Positions 11,101 through 32,012 of a stretch of DNA of 64,000 bases are shown piece by piece. Source of the stretch: Mobula hypostoma (taxonomy: Eukaryota). Each line of letters starts with the position of its first letter. The first letter of the stretch is position 1. Position numbers and translations under genes: made by a program. The stretch lies in contig NC_086097.1 of assembly GCF_963921235.1 (NCBI RefSeq), forward strand, positions 44,828,001-44,892,000. The letters run 5' to 3'. The notes under the pieces are model-generated. The model had not been told where the DNA came from, did not search any database, and saw only the letters and a list, made by a program, of their open reading frames with translations.

Positions 11101-12224
11101 CTTTTGAACTACCTCACTTTCTAAAATATTATTTCTGCTTTTTGCACGATTTCAAATCTATTCAATATACGCATACCGTAATTGATTTACATATTTATTT
11201 ATTATTATAGCCACAAATTATTTATTTATTTTCTTCTTCTATATTATGTATTGCATTAAACTGCTGCTGCTGAGTTAACAAATTTCATGACATATGCCAG
11301 TGATAATAAACATAATTCTGATAAGTCTGGATATTAGATAAATCAAATATGGGAATACAGCAGAAGGAAGGTAATGAAATAGAATGAACTTGCTGAATAG
11401 TGGCCCACTCCTACTTTTTTAATGTTCTAATGACTACATTCTGTATATACAATACACTAATGTAAGCTCTTACTTTCTTGTATAATATAAAAATACACAA
11501 GATATTTGCAAAACAGGAAGGACTGATGTCTACAATGAACAATGGCACACTTTTTGGTTAGATCAATTCTAGATATGTTTTAATGCTCCCAAAGCTAATG
11601 ATTGCTTTGGCAGATGGGAAACCTTTCAACATCTCTATGTTCGACCTGAGTTCATACTTCATTATAACATGCTACGTAAGTCCTGTTGTTATAATTGTTT
11701 GCTGGAAATGTCAGTAACTTTTGTCACCCGTATTAAATTAGTGCTATAGTATTGATCATCTGCAATGGATCTATCCCATTGATTAATTCTGCCACTTTAT
11801 TAAATAAGTAAAACTATTCTGCTCCATTAGATCCAAAATTTAAAGCAGTAAGAATAATATGCATTATATTTAAACTCAAAGAGAAACAAAATGGAAATAC
11901 CTAAGACAAAGTAAATAGCTGAGAAGTTAGGAATTTAAATAATTTTAATCAATTAACTAATTAGTCCATTTTTGGAACATTTAAAGTCAACTATATAATT
12001 TACCTGGGCCAATTCATTGCAGTGCATTGGGATTGCACTTTAAACTGCAATTCCAATGCCACAGGGCAAGAGCTGTACTTTCTGGCAGCACTTCAATATA
12101 AGGTAAGCATCATGGGCCCTCTTATTTCCTACAGGAATTTCTTGGTTGCACGTAGCTGAACAACAAACATGTCAGCTCTAGCCTGTAAAAGAACTTTTCA
12201 CAAAGGAACATGCCTCTTAAATCT

Positions 12225-13918
12225 CAAACATGAGGAATTCTGCAGATGCTGGAAATTCAAGCAACACACATCAAAGTTGCTGGTGAACGCAGCAGGCCAG
12301 GCAGCATCTCTAGGAAGAGGTGCAGTCTTCGGGCCAAGACACTTCATCAGGACTAACTGAAGGAAGAGCTAGTAAGAGATTTGAAAGTGGGAGGGGGAGA
12401 TCCAAAATGATAGGAGAAGACAGGAGGGGAGGGATGGAGCCAAGAGCTGGACAGTTGATTGGCAAAAGGGATATGAGAGGATCATGGGACAGGAGGCCCA
12501 GGGAGAAGGAAAAGCTGGGGGGGGGGACCCAGAGGATGGGCAAGGGGTATAGTCAGAGGGACAGAGGGAGAAAAAGGAGAGAGAGAGAAAGAATGTGTGT
12601 ATATAAATAAATAACGGATGGGGTACGAGGGGGAGGTGGGGCATTAGCATTAGTTTGAGAAGTCAATGTTCATGCCATCAGGTTGGAGGCTACCCAGACG
12701 GAATATAAGGTGTTGTTCCTCCAATCTGAGTGTGGCTTCATCTTTACGGTAGAGCAGGCTGTGGATAGACATATCAGAATGGGAATGGGATGTGTAGCCA
12801 CTGGGAGATCCTGCTTTCTCTGGCGGACAGAGCGTAGGTGTTCAGCAAAACCATCTCCCAGTCTGCATCGGGTCTCGCCAATATATAGAAGGCCACATCG
12901 GGAGCACTGGATGCAGTATATCACACCAGCAGACTCACAGGTGAAGTGTCGCCTCACCTGGAAGGACTGTCTGGGGCCCTGAATGATGGTAAGGGAGGAA
13001 CTGTAAGGGCATGTGTAGCACTTGTTCCGCTTACAAGGATAAGTGGCAGGAGGGAGATCAGTGGGGAGGGATGGGGGGGATGAATGGACAAGGGAGTTGC
13101 AGGGGCGGGGGAGGGAAAGATGTGCTTAGTGGTGGGATCCCATTGGAGGTGGCAGAAGTTACGGAGAATAATATGTTGGACCCGGAGGCTGGTGGGGTGG
13201 CAGGTGAGGACCAGGGGAACCCTATTCCTAGTTCCTAAGGGGGTGGTGGGAGGATGGAGTGAGAGCAGATGTGCGTGAAATGGGGGAGACACGTTTGAGA
13301 GCAGAATTGATGGTGGAGGAAGGGAAGCCCCTTTCTTTAAAAAAGGACATCTCCCTCATCCTGTAATGAAAAGCCGCATCCTGAGCGGTGGAGACGGAGG
13401 AATTGCGAGAAGGGGATGGCATTTTTGCAAGAGACAGGGTGAGAAGAGTCCAGATAGCTCTGAGAGTCAGTAGGCTTATAGTAGACATCAGTAGATAAGC
13501 TGTCTCCAGAGACAGAGACAGAAAGATCTAGAAAGGGGAGGGAGGTGTTGGAAATGGACCAGGTAAACTTCAGGGCAGGGTGAAAGTTGGAGGCAAAGTT
13601 AATGAAGTCAATGAGCTCAGCATGCGTGCAGGAAGCAGCGCCAATGCAGTCATCGATGTAGCGTAGGAAAAGTGGGGGACAGATACCAGAATAGGTTTGG
13701 AACATAGATCGTTCCACAAAGCCAACAAAAAGGCAGGCAGAACTAGGACCCATACGGGTGCCCATAGCTACACCTTTAGTTTGGAGGAAGTGGGAGGAGC
13801 CAAAGGAGAAATTATTAAGAGTAAGGACTAATTCCGCTAGACGGAGCAGAGTGGTGGTAGAGGGGAACTGATTAGGTCTGGAATCCAAAAAGAAGCGGAG
13901 AGCTTTGAGACCTTCCTG
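12225..13918 (-). mobile_element. Penelope-like retroelement (RT + GIY-YIG), 5'-truncated, 15-bp TSD
   Basis: RT motifs QTKGVAMGTRMGPS and LRYIDD (ORF 13337-13888); GIY-YIG GVIYCIQCSRCGLLYIGET (ORF 12670-12957); atgcctcttaaatct at 12210-12224 and 13919-13933. Confidence 0.93.
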
Positions 13919-27100: not shown

Positions 27101-27767
27101 CTGCAGAAAAGTACACGACTACAGTGGCAAGACCAGGAACAGAAGCAGTGACAGATGTACTCCCTGCTGAGCATGATGTGATCAGGTAGGGCTTGTCTGC
27201 TATACACCTGACATAATACATAGTATCTAATACTCCACCAAATGTCAAAGATAAGCCATCAATGTAACTGATACACTGCCAGAACAGAAACTCTAAGTGT
27301 ATTGTCAATAATTCAGTAGAAGCTATATAAAAAAAATCCAATATTCTAAATGGCTTACCTTAATCATGAAACAACAAGCTTTCTAATGGGGAATGCAATT
27401 ACGGACTGTCAGCTACAGACAAAAATTGCCTGAGCTTATTACATTATTTCACTTAACAGTCAGTTAAAAAATCCAAATATTATCAAGTGACATTGCTTCA
27501 AATTCAGAGATCATGAACAAACCATGTATATTTATAATATTAAAAATAAATCAGTTAGGAAACACTTCAAGTCTTTGTTATTAAACAAGAGTAACACCAT
27601 AATGAACAAAGTTAAAACTATTCTAGCAGATTACAGCTTGAATGTGCATCCCCCCTTCTTATTCTGGCTTCTTCACCTTTTACTCCAGTCCCGATGAATG
27701 GTCTCGTCCCGAAATGTCGACTGGAAATTTCCATAGATACTGCCTGACCTGCTGAAATTCTCCAGCA

Positions 27768-29450
27768 TCTTTTCATCATCAGTGGGGACGGGAGAAGTTC
27801 CGGAGGATTGGAGGGTTGTGGATGTTGTTCCTTTATCCAAGAAAGGGAGTAGAGATAGCCCAGGAAATTATAGACCAGTGAGTCTTACCTCAGTGGTTGG
27901 CAAGTTGATGGAGAAGATCCTGAGAGACAGGATTTATGTACATTTGGAGAGGTATAATATGATTAGGAATAGTCAGCATGGATTTGTCAAAAGCAGGTTA
28001 TGCTTTACAAGCCTGATTGAATTTTTTTGAGGATGTGACTAAACACATTGATGAATGAAGAGCAGTAGGTGTAGTGTATATGGATTTCAGCAAGGCATTT
28101 GATAAGGTACCACATGCAAGGCTTATTGAGAAAGTAAGGAGGCATGGGATCCACGAGGACATTGCTTTGTGGATCCAGAACTGGCTTGCTCACAGAGAGC
28201 AAAGAGTGATTGTAGACGGGTCATATTCTGCATGGAGGTCGGTCACCAGTGGAGTGCCTCAGGGATCTGTTCTGGGACCCTTACTCTTTGTGATTTTTAT
28301 AAGTGACCTGGATGAGGAAGTAGAGGTAAACACGAGGAATTCTGCAGATGCTGGAAATTCAAGCAAAACACATCAGGGTTGCTGGTGGGTGCGGCGGGCT
28401 GGGCGGCATCTCTGGGAGGAGGTGCAGTCGACGTTTCGGGCCGAGACCCTTCGTCGGCTGTGCCTCTTCCTAGAGGTGCTGCCTGGCCTGCTGTGTTCAC
28501 TGGCAACTTTGATGTGTGTTGAGGAAGTGGAGGAATGGGTTAGTAAGTTTGCTGATGACACAAAGGTTGGAGGTGTTGTGGATAGTGTGGAGGGCTGTCA
28601 GAGGTTACAGCAGGACATTGATAGGTTACAAAACTGGGCTGAGAAGTGGCAGATGGAGTTCAACCCAGATAAGTGTGAAGTGGTTCATTTTGGTGGTCAA
28701 ATATGATGACAGAATATAGTATTAATGGTAAGACTCTTGGCAGTGTGGAGGATCAGAGGGATCTTGGGGTCCGAGTCCATAGGACGCTCAAAGCAGCTGC
28801 GCAGGTTGACTCTGTGGTTAAGAAGGCATACGGTGTATTGGCCTTCATCAATCGTGGAATTGAATTTAGGAGCCGAGAGGTAATGTTGCAGCTATATAGG
28901 ACCCTGGTCAGACCCCACTTGGAGTACTTTGCTCAGTTCTGATCGTCTCACTACAGGAAGGATATGGAAACCATAGAAAGGGTGCAGAGGAGATTTACAA
29001 GGGTGTTGCCTGGATTGGGGAGCATGCCTTATGAGAATATGTTGAGTGAACTTGGCCTTTTCTCCTTGGAGCAACAGAGGATGAGAGGTGACCTGATAGA
29101 TGATGAGAGGTATTGATCGTGTGGATAGTCAGAGGCTTTTTCCCAGGGCTGAAATGGTTGCCACAAGAGAACATAGGTTTAAGGTGCTGGGGAGTAGGTA
29201 CAGAGGAGATGTCAGGGGTAAGTTTTTTACTCAGAGAGTGGTGAGGGCGTGGAATGGGCTGCCGCAACGGTAGTGGAGGTGGATACAATAGGGTCTTTTA
29301 AGAGACTTTTGGATAGGTACATGGAGCTTAGAAAAATAGAGGGCTATGGGTAAGCCTAGTATTTCAAAGGTAGGGACATGTTCAGCACAATTTTGTGGGC
29401 CAAAGGGCCTGTATTGTGCTGTAAGTTTTGTATGTTTGTATGTATGTATA
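27768..29450 (+). mobile_element. CR1 LINE RT + 3' end, 5'-truncated, relatively young
   Basis: NYRPVSLTSVVGK, MDFSKAFDKV, GVPQGSVLGPLLF, SKFADDTK, RPHLEY; (tatgt)-like tail near 29430-29448. Confidence 0.93.
28327..28519. mobile_element. Penelope-derived inverted pLTR (hairpin) insertion within the CR1 RT, 14-bp TSD
   Basis: TSD tgaggaagt(a/g)gagg at 28313-28326 and 28520-28533. Left arm matches 12226-12350 and right arm matches 30718-30783. Confidence 0.9.
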
Positions 29451-30174: not shown

Positions 30175-30820
30175 ACGCTCTGTCCGCCGGAGAAAGCAGG
30201 ATCTCCCAGTGGCCACACATTTTAATTCCACGTCCCATTCCCATTCTGATATGTCAATCCACGGCCTCCTCTATTGTCAAGATGAAGCCACACTCAGGTT
30301 GGAGGAACAACACCTTATATTCCGTCTGGGTAACCTCCAACCTGATGGCATGAACACTGACTTCTCTAACTTCCGTTAATGCCCCACCTCCCCTTTGTAC
30401 CCCAACTGTTATTTATTTTTTATTATTATTAATAATTTTTTTTCTCTCTCTCCTTTTTCTCCCTCTGTCCCTCTCATTATACTCCTTGCCCATCCTCTGG
30501 GCTTCCACCCTCCCCCTTTCTTTCTCCCTAGGCCTCCCATCCATCCCATGATCCTCTCATATCCCTTTTGCCAATCACCTGTCCAGCTCCTGGCTCCATC
30601 CCTTCCCCCTCCTGTCTTCTCCTATCATTTCAGATCTCCCCTTCCCCCTCCCACTTTCAAATCTCTTACTAGCTCTTCTTTCATTTAGTCCTGACGAAGG
30701 GTCTCGGCCCGAAACATTGACTGTACCTCTTCCTAGAGATGCTGCCTGGCCTGCTGCATTCACCAGCAATTTTTATGTGTGTTGCTTGAAATTCCAGCAT
30801 CTGCAGATTTCCTCGTGTTC
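30175..30820 (+). mobile_element. Penelope-like element 3' end (GIY-YIG end + pLTR)
   Basis: Reverse complement closely matches 12225-12830; flanked on both sides by aactttttt (probable TSD). Confidence 0.88.
30687..30722 (+). ncRNA. Minimal type I hammerhead ribozyme motif in a Penelope pLTR
   Basis: agtc-CTGACGA-aggg-tctcgg-ccc-GAAA-catt-gact: CUGANGA and GAAA core boxes, short stem II, agtc/gact stem I. Minimal hammerheads are an established feature of PLE pLTRs. Confidence 0.7.
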
Positions 30821-32012
30821 AACTTTTTTGAGTTTAGTAAAGCACTCTTCCTCTCGTTCTTGATATTTATCGCTTATCTATCTATTTATTTATTTATTTT
30901 CTTTTTTCCATTTGCATTTGCATAGTTTGTTGTCTTTTGCACATTGGCTGCTTGTCTGTCTTATTAAATGCCGTGTTTCATTGATTCTATTATGTATCTT
31001 GGATTTACTGTTTATGCCCGTAAGAAAACAAATCACAGGAGTGTAGATGGTGACATATACAGTATTTATATCGATAATAAATTTAACTTGCACTTTGAAT
31101 TTTGAATAGTTAAAATTTTTCAAATACTGATTGCTACTTCACACTTAACTAATCTAAACTACTAAACAAGTTTAAGATAACAATGTTTTAACCTAAGTCT
31201 CAAACTTAGTATTCCTTGTCATGCTGAAACTTTCTGGCCAGGCAAGATCCTTCTACAAGCAGTGTTGAAGACTCAGTTTTCACATGTGAGTCATGGTTCA
31301 TTTAGAAACCTGTTCTAGTAAACATATGGTAAAACATTATGAGTTTTACAATTTTCACATTAGCTTTAGGATATAAACGTTTTTTTAAAAAAATTTAAAT
31401 TTCAGCACATAATGAAATCAAATTAGATCAGTGCTTTCTCAGATATGTTTCAAGATCTAGATTGGTGAAGTAGTATTTAAATTAATCAAAGAAAAGGTCT
31501 CTATAAATCCAGTTTGAAATTCATGAATCATTTACTTCACCCTCATCTGAACCAAGGAGCACTGTAACTATTTTTGGCCCTCATGTCACTATCAATTCTT
31601 GGTACTGAATTTGGTAATATACATGGTGAACATTCACACAAAATTGTGTCAAAAGTCAAAGTTTAAATTCTCTGAAAATATGTTAATTTTAATGATTACT
31701 GTCCATAGCAATACAATTTATTGATATTTATTGCTAATCTGATTTTCAAAATTATTTGCAACAAATGACACATGCAATTCAGCAATCAACAGGGTAACAA
31801 ATAAGATATTCACACAGAAATAATTTTGGATTCCTTTCCCCACAAAATAACACTCTATTAACCAGTAACTTATTCAACAACTAGAAAAACCAATCCCAAA
31901 TTTTCTAAACTTTACATTTATAATACAACACTTGTTTACAATATGTCAATTTCATCAATATATCTCCCTTACTCTGCTCAATTATTTTTGCTTTGTAGAA
32001 GACTTCACTTAC

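What the first reader, a model, noticed from the sequence alone, without database searches (positions are those of the whole stretch)
28367..28519. Candidate genomic fossil of ADAR A-to-I hyper-editing in a retrotransposed hairpin
Seen: the insert is an inverted repeat with arms of about 65 bp. Against sibling pLTR copies in this window (12270-12327, 30718-30783) it has about 14-15 A>G differences on the + strand in BOTH arms. Left arm: caaag>caggg, gaac>gggt, gcagcagg>gcggcggg, ccagg>ctggg, cagc>cggc, ctagg>ctggg, aagag>aggag. Right arm: gac>ggc, tac>tgc, agat>aggt, ccag>ctgg. The opposing T residues are unchanged (non-compensatory), the unpaired 5' part (28327-28366) has no A>G, and nearly all other changes are C>T at old or newly created CpGs. 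Established: ADARs hyper-edit long dsRNA and inosine is reverse-transcribed as G. Inference: the edited RNA was the + strand. That is the sense strand of the host CR1, antisense to EVL, and opposite to the polarity of the PLE 3' end at 28327. So a CR1 transcript carrying the hairpin was probably edited and then retrotransposed in the germline.
Basis: partly seen in the sequence, partly recalled or inferred. Interest (0 to 1): 0.9.

Follow-up and report, generated by a model that had tools for sequence, protein, structure and literature searches.

The report
ADAR editing fossil in retroelement hairpin
A hairpin-shaped fragment of a Penelope-like jumping gene, sitting inside a CR1 LINE, carries a one-stranded cluster of A-to-G changes that looks like RNA editing by ADAR written back into the genome by reverse transcription, and the same thing has happened at many other places in this genome.

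Summary
Against the majority of 29 other genomic copies of the same 184-bp hairpin, the window copy has 16 A>G, 5 C>T, 1 C>A, 0 T>C and 0 G>A. Of the 16 G, 15 sit opposite an unchanged T in a 62-pair stem. The unpaired 5' tail has 0 of 19 A changed, against 16 of 27 in the stem.

The hairpin is an ordinary head-to-head Penelope-like (PLE) insertion with a 14-bp target-site duplication (TSD) in a 5'-truncated CR1 (27767-29443).

It is not unique. Pattern searches found 9, 7 and 12 similarly hypermutated PLE copies, with 0 in reversed controls. The pooled 5'-neighbour order, T>A>C>G, is ADAR-like.

Three other LINE-carried PLE insertions have both unedited and edited siblings at different loci, always edited on the LINE sense strand.

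For the window copy I found no donor or sibling, and the hairpin may be younger than its CR1. The CR1 route is therefore the leading reading (about 0.45) but unproven. A PLE-mediated route is the main rival.

This is a new variant of a known kind.

The parts
27767..28326 (+). Left part of a 5'-truncated CR1 LINE copy (reverse transcriptase region)
   Evidence: RVT_1 hits for 27782-28030 (E 2e-6) and 28074-28325 (E 3e-15) on +. Homology to other CR1 copies starts at 27767.
28313..28326 (.). Left copy of the 14-bp target-site duplication (TGAGGAAGTAGAGG)
   Evidence: Direct reading. Other CR1 copies have the site once.
28327..28374 (+). Unpaired 5' part: the PLE 'tail' and start region in antisense orientation; no A>G
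   Evidence: The alignment shows the same end in 29 other copies. 0 of 19 A changed in 28327-28370. The tail concept is from Craig 2021 and Frangieh 2024.
28375..28433 (+). Left arm (PLE antisense sequence); 11 A>G and 2 C>T on the + strand
28434..28451 (+). Apex of the hairpin, where the two 5'-truncated copies meet. Holds 28438 (a polymorphic A/G site). 28427-28455 is the reverse complement of a partial hammerhead-like core.
   Evidence: Fold. Junction compared with other copies. The hammerhead motif was read by eye and recalled; Rfam found none.
28452..28510 (+). Right arm (PLE sense sequence, ending at the usual shorter PLE end GATGTGTGT); 4 A>G (1 of them polymorphic) and 2 C>T on the + strand
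28511..28524 (.). Right copy of the target-site duplication (TGAGGAAGTGGAGG)
28525..29443 (+). Right part of the CR1 copy, up to its 3' end with a (tgtatg)n tail
   Evidence: Common 3' end at 29440-29445 in alignments to 5 other CR1 copies. Sequence. Nearest relatives are 91-93% identical.
12222..12760 (+).
   Evidence: 4 A>G, 2 T>C against the majority of 30 long copies.
30687..30830 (+).

Best explanation
The A>G cluster is a DNA fossil of ADAR-type hyper-editing.

Proposed sequence of events:
1. A Penelope-like element inserted head-to-head, as two 5'-truncated copies meeting in the middle, into a CR1 LINE. This created a perfect inverted repeat of about 60 bp.
2. A + strand (CR1-sense) transcript through it folded into a long duplex.
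3. ADAR deaminated about half of the duplex adenosines in both arms and spared the unpaired tail.
4. The edited RNA was reverse transcribed, with inosine read as G, and integrated in the germline.
5. CpGs old and newly made by the edits then decayed to TpG.

Shown: the cluster, its strand, its restriction to the duplex, its non-compensatory nature, and the same process in three other LINE-carried PLE insertions.

Inferred: that ADAR is the enzyme, that the event was in the germline, and that this particular copy came by the CR1 route.
For: Pattern in the window: 16 A>G, 0 T>C, 0 G>A. 15 of 16 G sit opposite T, and the tail has 0 of 19 A changed against 16 of 27 in the stem.

No subfamily explains it. 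No copy in the genome shares the Gs: the best other match is 87% identical, and all nine 33-mers differ.

Neighbour signature:
- Pooled over 9 hypermutated arms (286 edited, 281 unedited A), the edited fraction by 5' neighbour is T 0.89, A 0.66, C 0.50, G 0.32 (chi-square P 3e-15).
- Polarised by unedited siblings, it is T 15/23, A 27/54, C 24/70, G 13/53 (P 0.002).

Edits sit on one DNA strand across mutually complementary segments:
- Window: A arm 13/43 plus S arm 5/13.
- L052: 15/26 plus 7/21.
- L046: 20/39 in the part of the upstream sense copy that is complementary to the A arm (21/103 over that whole copy, so about 1 of 64 outside it), plus 42/76 in the A arm.

The route is shown in three LINE-carried families:
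- Family 1: L091 unedited. L053 and L088 are edited, with 26 of 35 and 20 of 28 changes being A>G. L092 is also edited and is 5'-truncated inside the insert. All share a common 3' end.
- Family 2, at the window's own CR1 site: L096 unedited, L094 with 16 A>G of 19 changes.
- Family 3: L097 unedited, L090 with 17 A>G of 18 changes, both arms edited and the tail spared, next to a 526-aa RVT_1 ORF on the edited strand.

In the window too, the edited strand is the CR1 sense strand.
Against: No donor or sibling CR1 with this hairpin was found. In one search (424-nt query spanning both junctions) the best other full-span hit is 83% identical and has a different apex and left end. In one search the nearest CR1 relatives of the right flank are 91-93% identical. 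Both searches scored only 40 of 7930 and 40 of 9690 candidates.

The CR1 flanks carry 42 private changes in 1027 comparable sites. The hairpin has 0-2 ordinary non-CpG, non-A>G changes where 5-6 would be expected (my Poisson estimate, P 0.003 to 0.07). This hints that the hairpin entered an already aged CR1 copy. However, 4 CpG decays and 1 TSD mismatch show it is not very young.

At least one hypermutated PLE hairpin (L049) sits with its own TSD in an old repeat whose best relatives are 77-79% identical, and it has no parent copy. A route without a LINE carrier therefore exists, unless that donor was lost.

The window alone does not reach significance for neighbour bias: 5' G 3/15 against non-G 15/40, P 0.34.

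No RNA data show ADAR editing at such hairpins in this species.
Confidence: 0.45

Rival explanations
1. Same ADAR editing of a + strand fold-back transcript, but the edited RNA was copied and inserted by the PLE machinery itself, not by CR1. The right arm is a sense PLE module ending at a usual PLE outer end (28510). A read-through transcript of a parent hairpin elsewhere could serve as template, with the left end set by the second, top-strand-primed cDNA. The new copy then landed in the CR1 hot spot.
For: - PLE protein cleaves and extends both target strands and starts reverse transcription at two internal sites, with the tail lying between them (Frangieh 2024, main text read).
- Both outer ends of the window hairpin are the usual ends of the family.
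- Hairpin copies with the same apex junction exist elsewhere (L003, L007).
- The CR1 site took PLE insertions of different structure in several copies: L032, L034, L035 and L038 at the same site, and L033, L036 and L039 within about 30 bp.
- L049 is a TSD-flanked hypermutated hairpin in an old repeat without any parent copy.
- The hairpin shows fewer ordinary substitutions than its CR1 flanks.
- No CR1 donor was found.
Against: - Copying of a fold-back transcript with exact trimming at the far end has never been shown. It is my inference.
- Recurrent apex junctions may just reflect microhomology.
- That the edited strand equals the CR1 sense strand would be a 1-in-2 coincidence.
- All three cases with identified unedited siblings are LINE-carried.
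Confidence: 0.3
2. ADAR deaminated deoxyadenosines in the cDNA strand of the RNA:DNA hybrid during target-primed reverse transcription, so no edited RNA template is needed.
For: - ADARs deaminate dA in DNA/RNA hybrids in vitro with their usual sequence preferences (Zheng 2017, abstract read).
- In L047, L048, L049, L050 and L084 only the arm whose + strand is the first-strand cDNA is changed (31-68 A>G). In L048, L049 and L053 the unpaired tail is changed too. The adjacent partner arm is untouched (at most 2 of about 50 A).
Against: - In the window the right arm has its A>G on the strand that would not be the cDNA, with 0 T>C, and the tail is spared.
- In L046 and L048 a separate upstream sense copy is edited on the same strand, and in L046 only where it is complementary to the edited arm. 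This points to an intramolecular RNA duplex.
- The LINE-carried families have both arms edited on the LINE sense strand.
Confidence: 0.07
3. The locus's own edited transcript was reverse transcribed, and the cDNA replaced the resident sequence by homologous recombination (in-place gene conversion).
For: It would explain the absence of a donor and the in-place pattern in L046 and L048, where an upstream copy and the arm are edited together while the adjacent arm is not.
Against: There is no direct evidence, and such events are rare in vertebrates (general knowledge). It does not explain why the hairpin shows fewer ordinary substitutions than its flanks. The sibling families show true copying to new loci.
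Confidence: 0.05
4. Not editing at all: a PLE subfamily, ordinary or transcription-associated mutation, GC-biased conversion, or an assembly or polishing error.
For: Three of the 16 sites are family polymorphisms. The only read-derived support may come from the assembled sample itself.
Against: - 13 private A>G against 0 T>C (binomial P 0.001).
- No other copy shares the pattern.
- The changes are restricted to the duplex.
- Biased conversion would give T>C as well.
- The same signature occurs at more than 20 other loci, with unedited siblings at some.
Confidence: 0.03

Closest known systems
Genomic traces of ADAR-edited retrotransposons in mammals (Knisbacher and Levanon 2015, Ann N Y Acad Sci 1341:115)
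   Same: Clusters of A-to-G differences between retroelement copies, read as RNA editing fixed by retrotransposition.
   Different: The paper is not held. I saw only its title in reference lists and one citing sentence, and the rest is recalled. Here the duplex comes from a Penelope-like head-to-head insertion nested in a CR1 LINE of a non-mammalian vertebrate, and unedited and edited siblings of the same nested insert are identified.
A-to-G hypermutation of retroviral genomes attributed to ADAR (recalled from the 1990s literature; no paper seen here)
   Same: Inosine in the RNA template is read as G by reverse transcriptase, giving one-stranded A>G clusters in DNA.
   Different: Those are exogenous viruses. 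Here the copies are fixed germline copies of non-viral retroelements.
Hyper-editing of inverted Alu pairs in human transcripts (Porath 2014, PMC4365171, search listing and abstract start only)
   Same: A long intramolecular duplex from inverted repeats, with about half of the A edited and a 5' G depletion (the neighbour rule is recalled).
   Different: That is seen in RNA only. Here the result is in DNA.
APOBEC G>A DNA-editing fossils in retrotransposons (Knisbacher 2015, PMC4866542, listing only)
   Same: A deaminase signature frozen in integrated retroelement copies.
   Different: A different enzyme, substrate (cDNA) and mutation type. No G>A excess is seen here (0 G>A in the window copy).
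Penelope-like element insertions with an adjacent inverted 5'-truncated copy and a one-sided 30-40 bp tail (Craig 2021, PMC8557442, passages; Frangieh 2024, PMC11167929, main text)
   Same: The structure of the insert: TSD, two outer ends at the usual start sites, a tail on one side only, and a variable inner junction.
   Different: Neither the Craig 2021 passages nor the Frangieh 2024 main text that I read mentions RNA editing of these fold-backs.

Membership tests
ADAR hyper-editing fossil | Cluster of A>G on one strand without T>C | tested here: met
   16 A>G, 0 T>C, 0 G>A in 176 columns; the other 29 copies have 0-4 A>G each.
ADAR hyper-editing fossil | Changes confined to the double-stranded part and not compensated in the partner arm | tested here: met
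   Tail 0 of 19 A against stem 16 of 27 (P 1.7e-5). 15 of 16 G sit opposite T.
ADAR hyper-editing fossil | 5' neighbour preference U>A>C>G (rule recalled, not taken from a paper read here) | tested here: inconclusive
   Window alone: T 3/4, A 6/17, C 6/19, G 3/15, not significant. Pooled over 9 arms: T 0.89 > A 0.66 > C 0.50 > G 0.32, P 3e-15. Polarised by siblings: P 0.002. 3' G enrichment is not seen in the pools.
ADAR hyper-editing fossil | An unedited progenitor or sibling of the same copy | tested here: not met
   None found for the window copy (only 40 candidates scored per search). Met for three other families: L091 against L053 and L088; L096 against L094; L097 against L090.
ADAR hyper-editing fossil | Editing of such hairpins seen in RNA, and ADAR present in the organism | not tested
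No ADAR gene search was made.
Penelope-like element head-to-head insertion | TSD, two inverted 5'-truncated copies, usual outer ends, tail on one side | tested here: met
   Searches compared with Craig 2021 and Frangieh 2024. 29 other copies each have their own flanks; TSDs were read for some of them (e.g. L003).
Penelope-like element head-to-head insertion | Hammerhead ribozyme motif and GIY-YIG/RT coding capacity in the family | tested here: inconclusive
   Rfam found no hammerhead at gathering threshold or at E up to 10; the motif was read by eye only. GIY-YIG E 4.5e-4, below cut-off, lies upstream of a sense 3' end on the same strand in L051. ORFs beside the window's long copy gave no Pfam hit.
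CR1-type LINE (host of the insert) | Reverse transcriptase ORF on the + strand; common 3' end with a short tandem repeat; 5' truncation | tested here: met
RVT_1 E 3e-15. Common end at 29440-29445 and start at 27767. The 3' sequence is.
   CR1 copies with PLE inserts at this site have other structures. The route itself is demonstrated for three other inserts.

The most novel reading that the evidence does not exclude
Some of the hypermutated copies have only the first-strand-cDNA arm changed, tail included, from the usual start site inward, while the adjoining partner arm is untouched and the copy has its own TSD in an old repeat (L049; also L047, L048, L050, L084). These may record ADAR acting on the DNA strand of the RNA:DNA hybrid during target-primed reverse transcription. 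That would be natural in vivo DNA editing by ADAR. Alternatively, they may show that Penelope reverse transcriptase copies edited fold-back transcripts, making PLE fold-backs a recurrent channel that writes RNA editing into germline DNA.
Probability: 0.15. Interest if true: 0.85.

Novelty: new variant of a known kind. Interest (0 to 1): 0.6.

Why it matters
Retrotransposition of ADAR-edited RNA is an accepted idea, but clean cases with the unedited sibling in hand are rare.

In this genome, the way Penelope-like elements integrate makes perfect inverted repeats. When these lie inside active LINEs they become ADAR substrates and are then copied back into DNA. The result is heritable bursts of 13 to more than 60 A>G changes per copy.

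The sibling sets (L091 with L053, L088 and L092; L096 with L094; L097 with L090) give a natural experiment on ADAR site choice in a non-mammalian vertebrate. They also provide a marker for which transcripts were retrotransposed, and a way to ask whether any editing reaches DNA without a LINE carrier.

Tried and rejected
I used three IUPAC or all-G patterns instead and one opposite-polarity pattern.
- Rfam: no hammerhead or other family in the window, nor at E up to 10 in 30550-30850.
- Pfam on ORFs beside the window's long PLE copy: no hit. Pfam on 148 ORFs of 11 hypermutated loci: 3 hits only.
- Subfamily explanation: rejected.
- Two-generation model (an edited parent, then an ordinary daughter): rejected for the nine copies, because all nine 33-mers differ.
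- Hairpin-RNA editing as the only model: rejected for L047-L050 and L084, where the adjacent partner arm is unedited.
- Reading the other CR1 copies with PLE inserts at this site as siblings of the window copy: rejected for L035 (antisense copy only, 1.37 kb) and L038 (sense copy only). It cannot be fully excluded for L032, because siblings of family 3 differ by apex deletions.
- Age test of hairpin against CR1 flanks: inconclusive (plus my Poisson estimate).
- Read laying: the output is dominated by repeat contigs. A bin without cover in run X9 (28378-28396) is no evidence of absence.
- Earlier scan notes: none on editing.
- Literature: searches found no paper on ADAR fossils in Penelope-like elements or in cartilaginous fish. 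The key mammalian paper is not held.
Full report
**What is there.** The flagged stretch lies in a 184-bp insert (28327-28510). It is flanked by a 14-bp direct repeat, TGAGGAAGT[A/G]GAGG. The insert interrupts the reverse-transcriptase frame of a LINE on the + strand: RVT_1 E 2e-6 and 3e-15 on either side upstream.

That LINE copy runs from 27767 (5' truncation) to about 29443, where five other copies end as well. It has a (tgtatg)n tail.

As RNA the + strand folds into a 62-pair hairpin with a continuous 59-bp stem (dG -114.9 kcal/mol, z -11.7).

**The hairpin is a common, known kind of insertion.** A search of the window's own genome (3.48 Gb) with the 184 bp gave 3627 first-look candidates. 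All 40 scored were full-length copies at other loci, 81-87% identical. In the alignment of 29 of them, each copy has its own flanks. The left end is constant with a 40-nt extension, the right end is shorter, and the inner junction varies.

This matches published Penelope-like element (PLE) insertions.
- An inverted 5'-truncated copy often adjoins the main copy, and a 30-40 bp tail sits at one end only (Craig 2021, passages).
- The PLE protein cleaves and extends both target strands and starts reverse transcription at two internal sites, with the tail between them (Frangieh 2024, main text).

So the left arm's + strand and the right arm's - strand are the two first-strand cDNAs, and the arms meet at their truncated 5' ends.

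The polarity was checked in L051. There a weak GIY-YIG match (E 4.5e-4, below cut-off) lies upstream of a sense 3' end on the same strand. Rfam found no hammerhead. The partial hammerhead-like core at the apex was read by eye only. Two earlier notes of this scan on other windows of this genome describe the same fold-back structure and the hammerhead motifs.

**The observation.** Against the column majority of the 29 other copies (176 columns), the window copy has 22 differences: 16 A>G, 5 C>T, 1 C>A, no T>C and no G>A.
- Three A>G sites (28424, 28438, 28476) are polymorphic in the family.
- At the other 13 sites, at most 3 of 29 copies carry G.
- The other copies have 0-4 A>G each. Their total is 57 A>G, 35 of them at the three polymorphic sites, against 15 T>C.
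- 15 of the 16 G sit opposite an unchanged T.
- Four C>T sites (28390, 28400, 28494, 28501) sit opposite G. They lie in CpGs, two of which were made by the A>G changes.
- The unpaired tail has 0 of 19 A changed, against 16 of 27 in the stem (P 1.7e-5).

Caveat: the comparison copies are the best matches to the window copy, which biases them towards its alleles.

A 101-nt contig of one public run covers 28337-28437 with one difference. That run may be the assembled sample.

**It is not a subfamily, and it is not unique.** A pattern demanding G at two of the sites hit only the window and one other locus.

An all-G version of a 33-nt stretch with 8 A, allowing up to 3 mismatches, hit 9 loci, with 0 for the reversed control. 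All nine 33-mers differ from each other.

A balanced test used a 32-nt stretch with 8 A and 8 T:
- the A>G version gave 7 hits;
- the T>C version gave 12 hits;
- controls gave 0.

So both polarities relative to the PLE occur.

In the nine arms, 30-60% of the A are G and T>C is 0-2 per arm. Ordinary long copies have 0-8 A>G in about 600 nt.

**Enzyme signature.** Pooled over the nine arms (286 edited, 281 unedited A), the edited fraction by 5' neighbour is T 0.89, A 0.66, C 0.50, G 0.32 (P 3e-15). Polarised by unedited siblings (see below), it is T 15/23, A 27/54, C 24/70, G 13/53 (P 0.002). This is the order I recall for ADARs. 3' G enrichment is not seen in the pools. The window alone (18 sites) is not significant.

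**Duplex logic.** In several loci the changes sit on one DNA strand across segments that are complementary to each other.
- Window: A arm 13/43, S arm 5/13.
- L052: 15/26 and 7/21.
- L046: an upstream sense copy is changed only where it is complementary to the edited arm (20/39 there; 21/103 over the whole copy, so about 1 of 64 outside). The arm itself is 42/76, and the directly adjoining partner arm is 0/35.
- L048: an upstream copy 1.27 kb away is 13/30, the arm 50/92, and the adjoining partner 1/54.

This is what a transcript of that strand would give if it folds as it is made.

There are three families of LINE-carried PLE inserts.

Family 1:
- A 914-nt LINE 3' part containing a PLE hairpin (TSD ACTAATTGATG) occurs at three loci in full.
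- It occurs at one locus truncated inside the hairpin arm, and at many loci only as the last 187 nt. This is the LINE pattern of a common 3' end with variable 5' ends.
- L091 is unedited.
- L053 and L088 differ from L091 in the PLE part by 26 A>G of 35 changes and 20 of 28. The flanks differ by only 8 and 6 changes in about 143 nt.
- The truncated L092 is edited too.

Family 2, at the very CR1 site of the window insert:
- L096 (unedited) and L094 share private variants in both PLE and CR1.
- L094 has 16 A>G of 19 changes in 239 nt of PLE, and 4 changes in 131 nt of CR1.

Family 3:
- The host is a young CR1. Empty-site copies are 99-100% alike, and a 526-aa ORF with RVT_1 lies on the edited strand.
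- It carries a hairpin (TSD AAAACAGATTATT) at five or more loci.
- L097 is unedited.
- L090 has 17 A>G of 18 changes, in both arms, with the tail spared.
- Other siblings differ by apex deletions.

In all three families the edited strand is the LINE sense strand, as in the window.

**What is missing for the window copy.**
- A query spanning both junctions found no copy with the same insert. The best full-span hit (L032, 83%) has the same target site but another left end and apex. L034 is in a distant CR1. L035 has only a 1.37-kb antisense copy and L038 only a sense copy. L033, L036 and L039 are a few bases away. I read these as separate insertions into a hot spot. Given the apex deletions in family 3, kinship of the window copy with L032 cannot be fully excluded.
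- The nearest relatives of the CR1 right flank are 91-93% identical. The flanks have 42 private changes in 1027 comparable sites.
- The hairpin has 0-2 ordinary non-CpG, non-A>G changes where 5-6 would be expected (my estimate, P 0.003-0.07). It also has four CpG decays and one TSD mismatch. This is a weak hint that the hairpin entered an aged CR1 copy in place.
- L049 is a hypermutated hairpin with its own 18-bp TSD inside an old repeat whose other copies are 77-79% identical and have the empty site. No parent was found. A route without a LINE carrier is therefore likely to exist.

**Weighing.**
- That the cluster is an ADAR-type editing fossil fixed through reverse transcription: about 0.85-0.9.
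- Route for this copy: CR1 transcript 0.45; PLE-mediated copying of an edited fold-back transcript into the hot spot 0.3; editing of the cDNA strand in the RNA:DNA hybrid 0.07 (Zheng 2017, abstract); in-place cDNA conversion 0.05; no editing 0.03.

**Comparison with what is known.** Fixation of ADAR-edited retroelement RNA has been reported for mammals (Knisbacher and Levanon 2015). I saw only the title and a citing sentence.

My searches found nothing on ADAR fossils in Penelope-like elements or in this group of animals. Those searches cover only the held library.

New here:
- the source of the duplex, which is the PLE integration mode itself;
- the nesting in LINEs;
- the sibling sets with the unedited form;
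- the one-arm cases, which are not explained by a simple hairpin.

Noticed in passing
window 28313-28326 / 28511-28524; L032, L034, L035, L038 (same site); L033, L036, L039 (within about 30 bp): This short stretch of the CR1 reverse-transcriptase region (GAGGAAGTGGAGG) has taken PLE insertions of different structure in many CR1 copies. It looks like a target hot spot for the PLE endonuclease.
   Followed up: partly
L047, L048, L049, L050, L084 (edited arm starts near 1431-1480 in the oriented loci): Only the arm whose + strand is the first-strand cDNA is hypermutated (31-68 A>G). In L048, L049 and L053 the unpaired tail is changed too. The directly adjoining partner arm is untouched (at most 2 of about 50 A). 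A simple hairpin RNA does not explain this.
   Followed up: partly
L046 843-1930; L048 3-2114: A separate upstream sense copy (25 nt and 1.27 kb away) is edited on the same strand as the arm, and in L046 only where it is complementary to it. The 5'-most partner seems to win, as in co-transcriptional folding.
   Followed up: partly
L097-L100 versus L090: Siblings of one LINE-carried hairpin differ by deletions across the hairpin apex (18 to about 53 nt). Either reverse transcriptase skipped across the stem, or the palindrome is unstable in DNA.
   Followed up: no
L094 1-330: The edited sibling L094 has a chimeric 5' side: a CR1 3' portion is joined directly to the 5'-truncated PLE. It looks like a template switch during LINE reverse transcription.
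   Followed up: no
one search hits, e.g. C52:81025983-81026395: The CR1 family hosting L090 has many empty-site copies that are 99-100% identical to each other over the two roughly 210-nt flank stretches of the query. This suggests a very recently active LINE.
   Followed up: no
window 27634-27772: An older, diverged PLE-like 3' end (sense orientation) abuts the 5' truncation point of the CR1 copy. It is not edited (A>G 2/22).
   Followed up: no
window 28476 and the same column in L002-L030: G in 13 of 29 right arms, while none of the 29 left arms shows the matching C. This is either an arm-specific variant or an effect of picking the copies most like the window.
   Followed up: no
L084 2054-2271: A nearby sense-oriented PLE piece shows T>C at 25 of 68 T on the same strand. 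That could be an edit of the opposite strand, but the alignment is poor (28 transversions).
   Followed up: no
L051 oriented 1353-2226: The hypermutated, non-hairpin 112-nt PLE piece (TSD AAGTGTTCCCAA) sits inside an integrase-like frame (rve E 6e-6, below cut-off) on the edited strand. A PLE end with a weak GIY-YIG match lies 600 nt downstream.
   Followed up: partly
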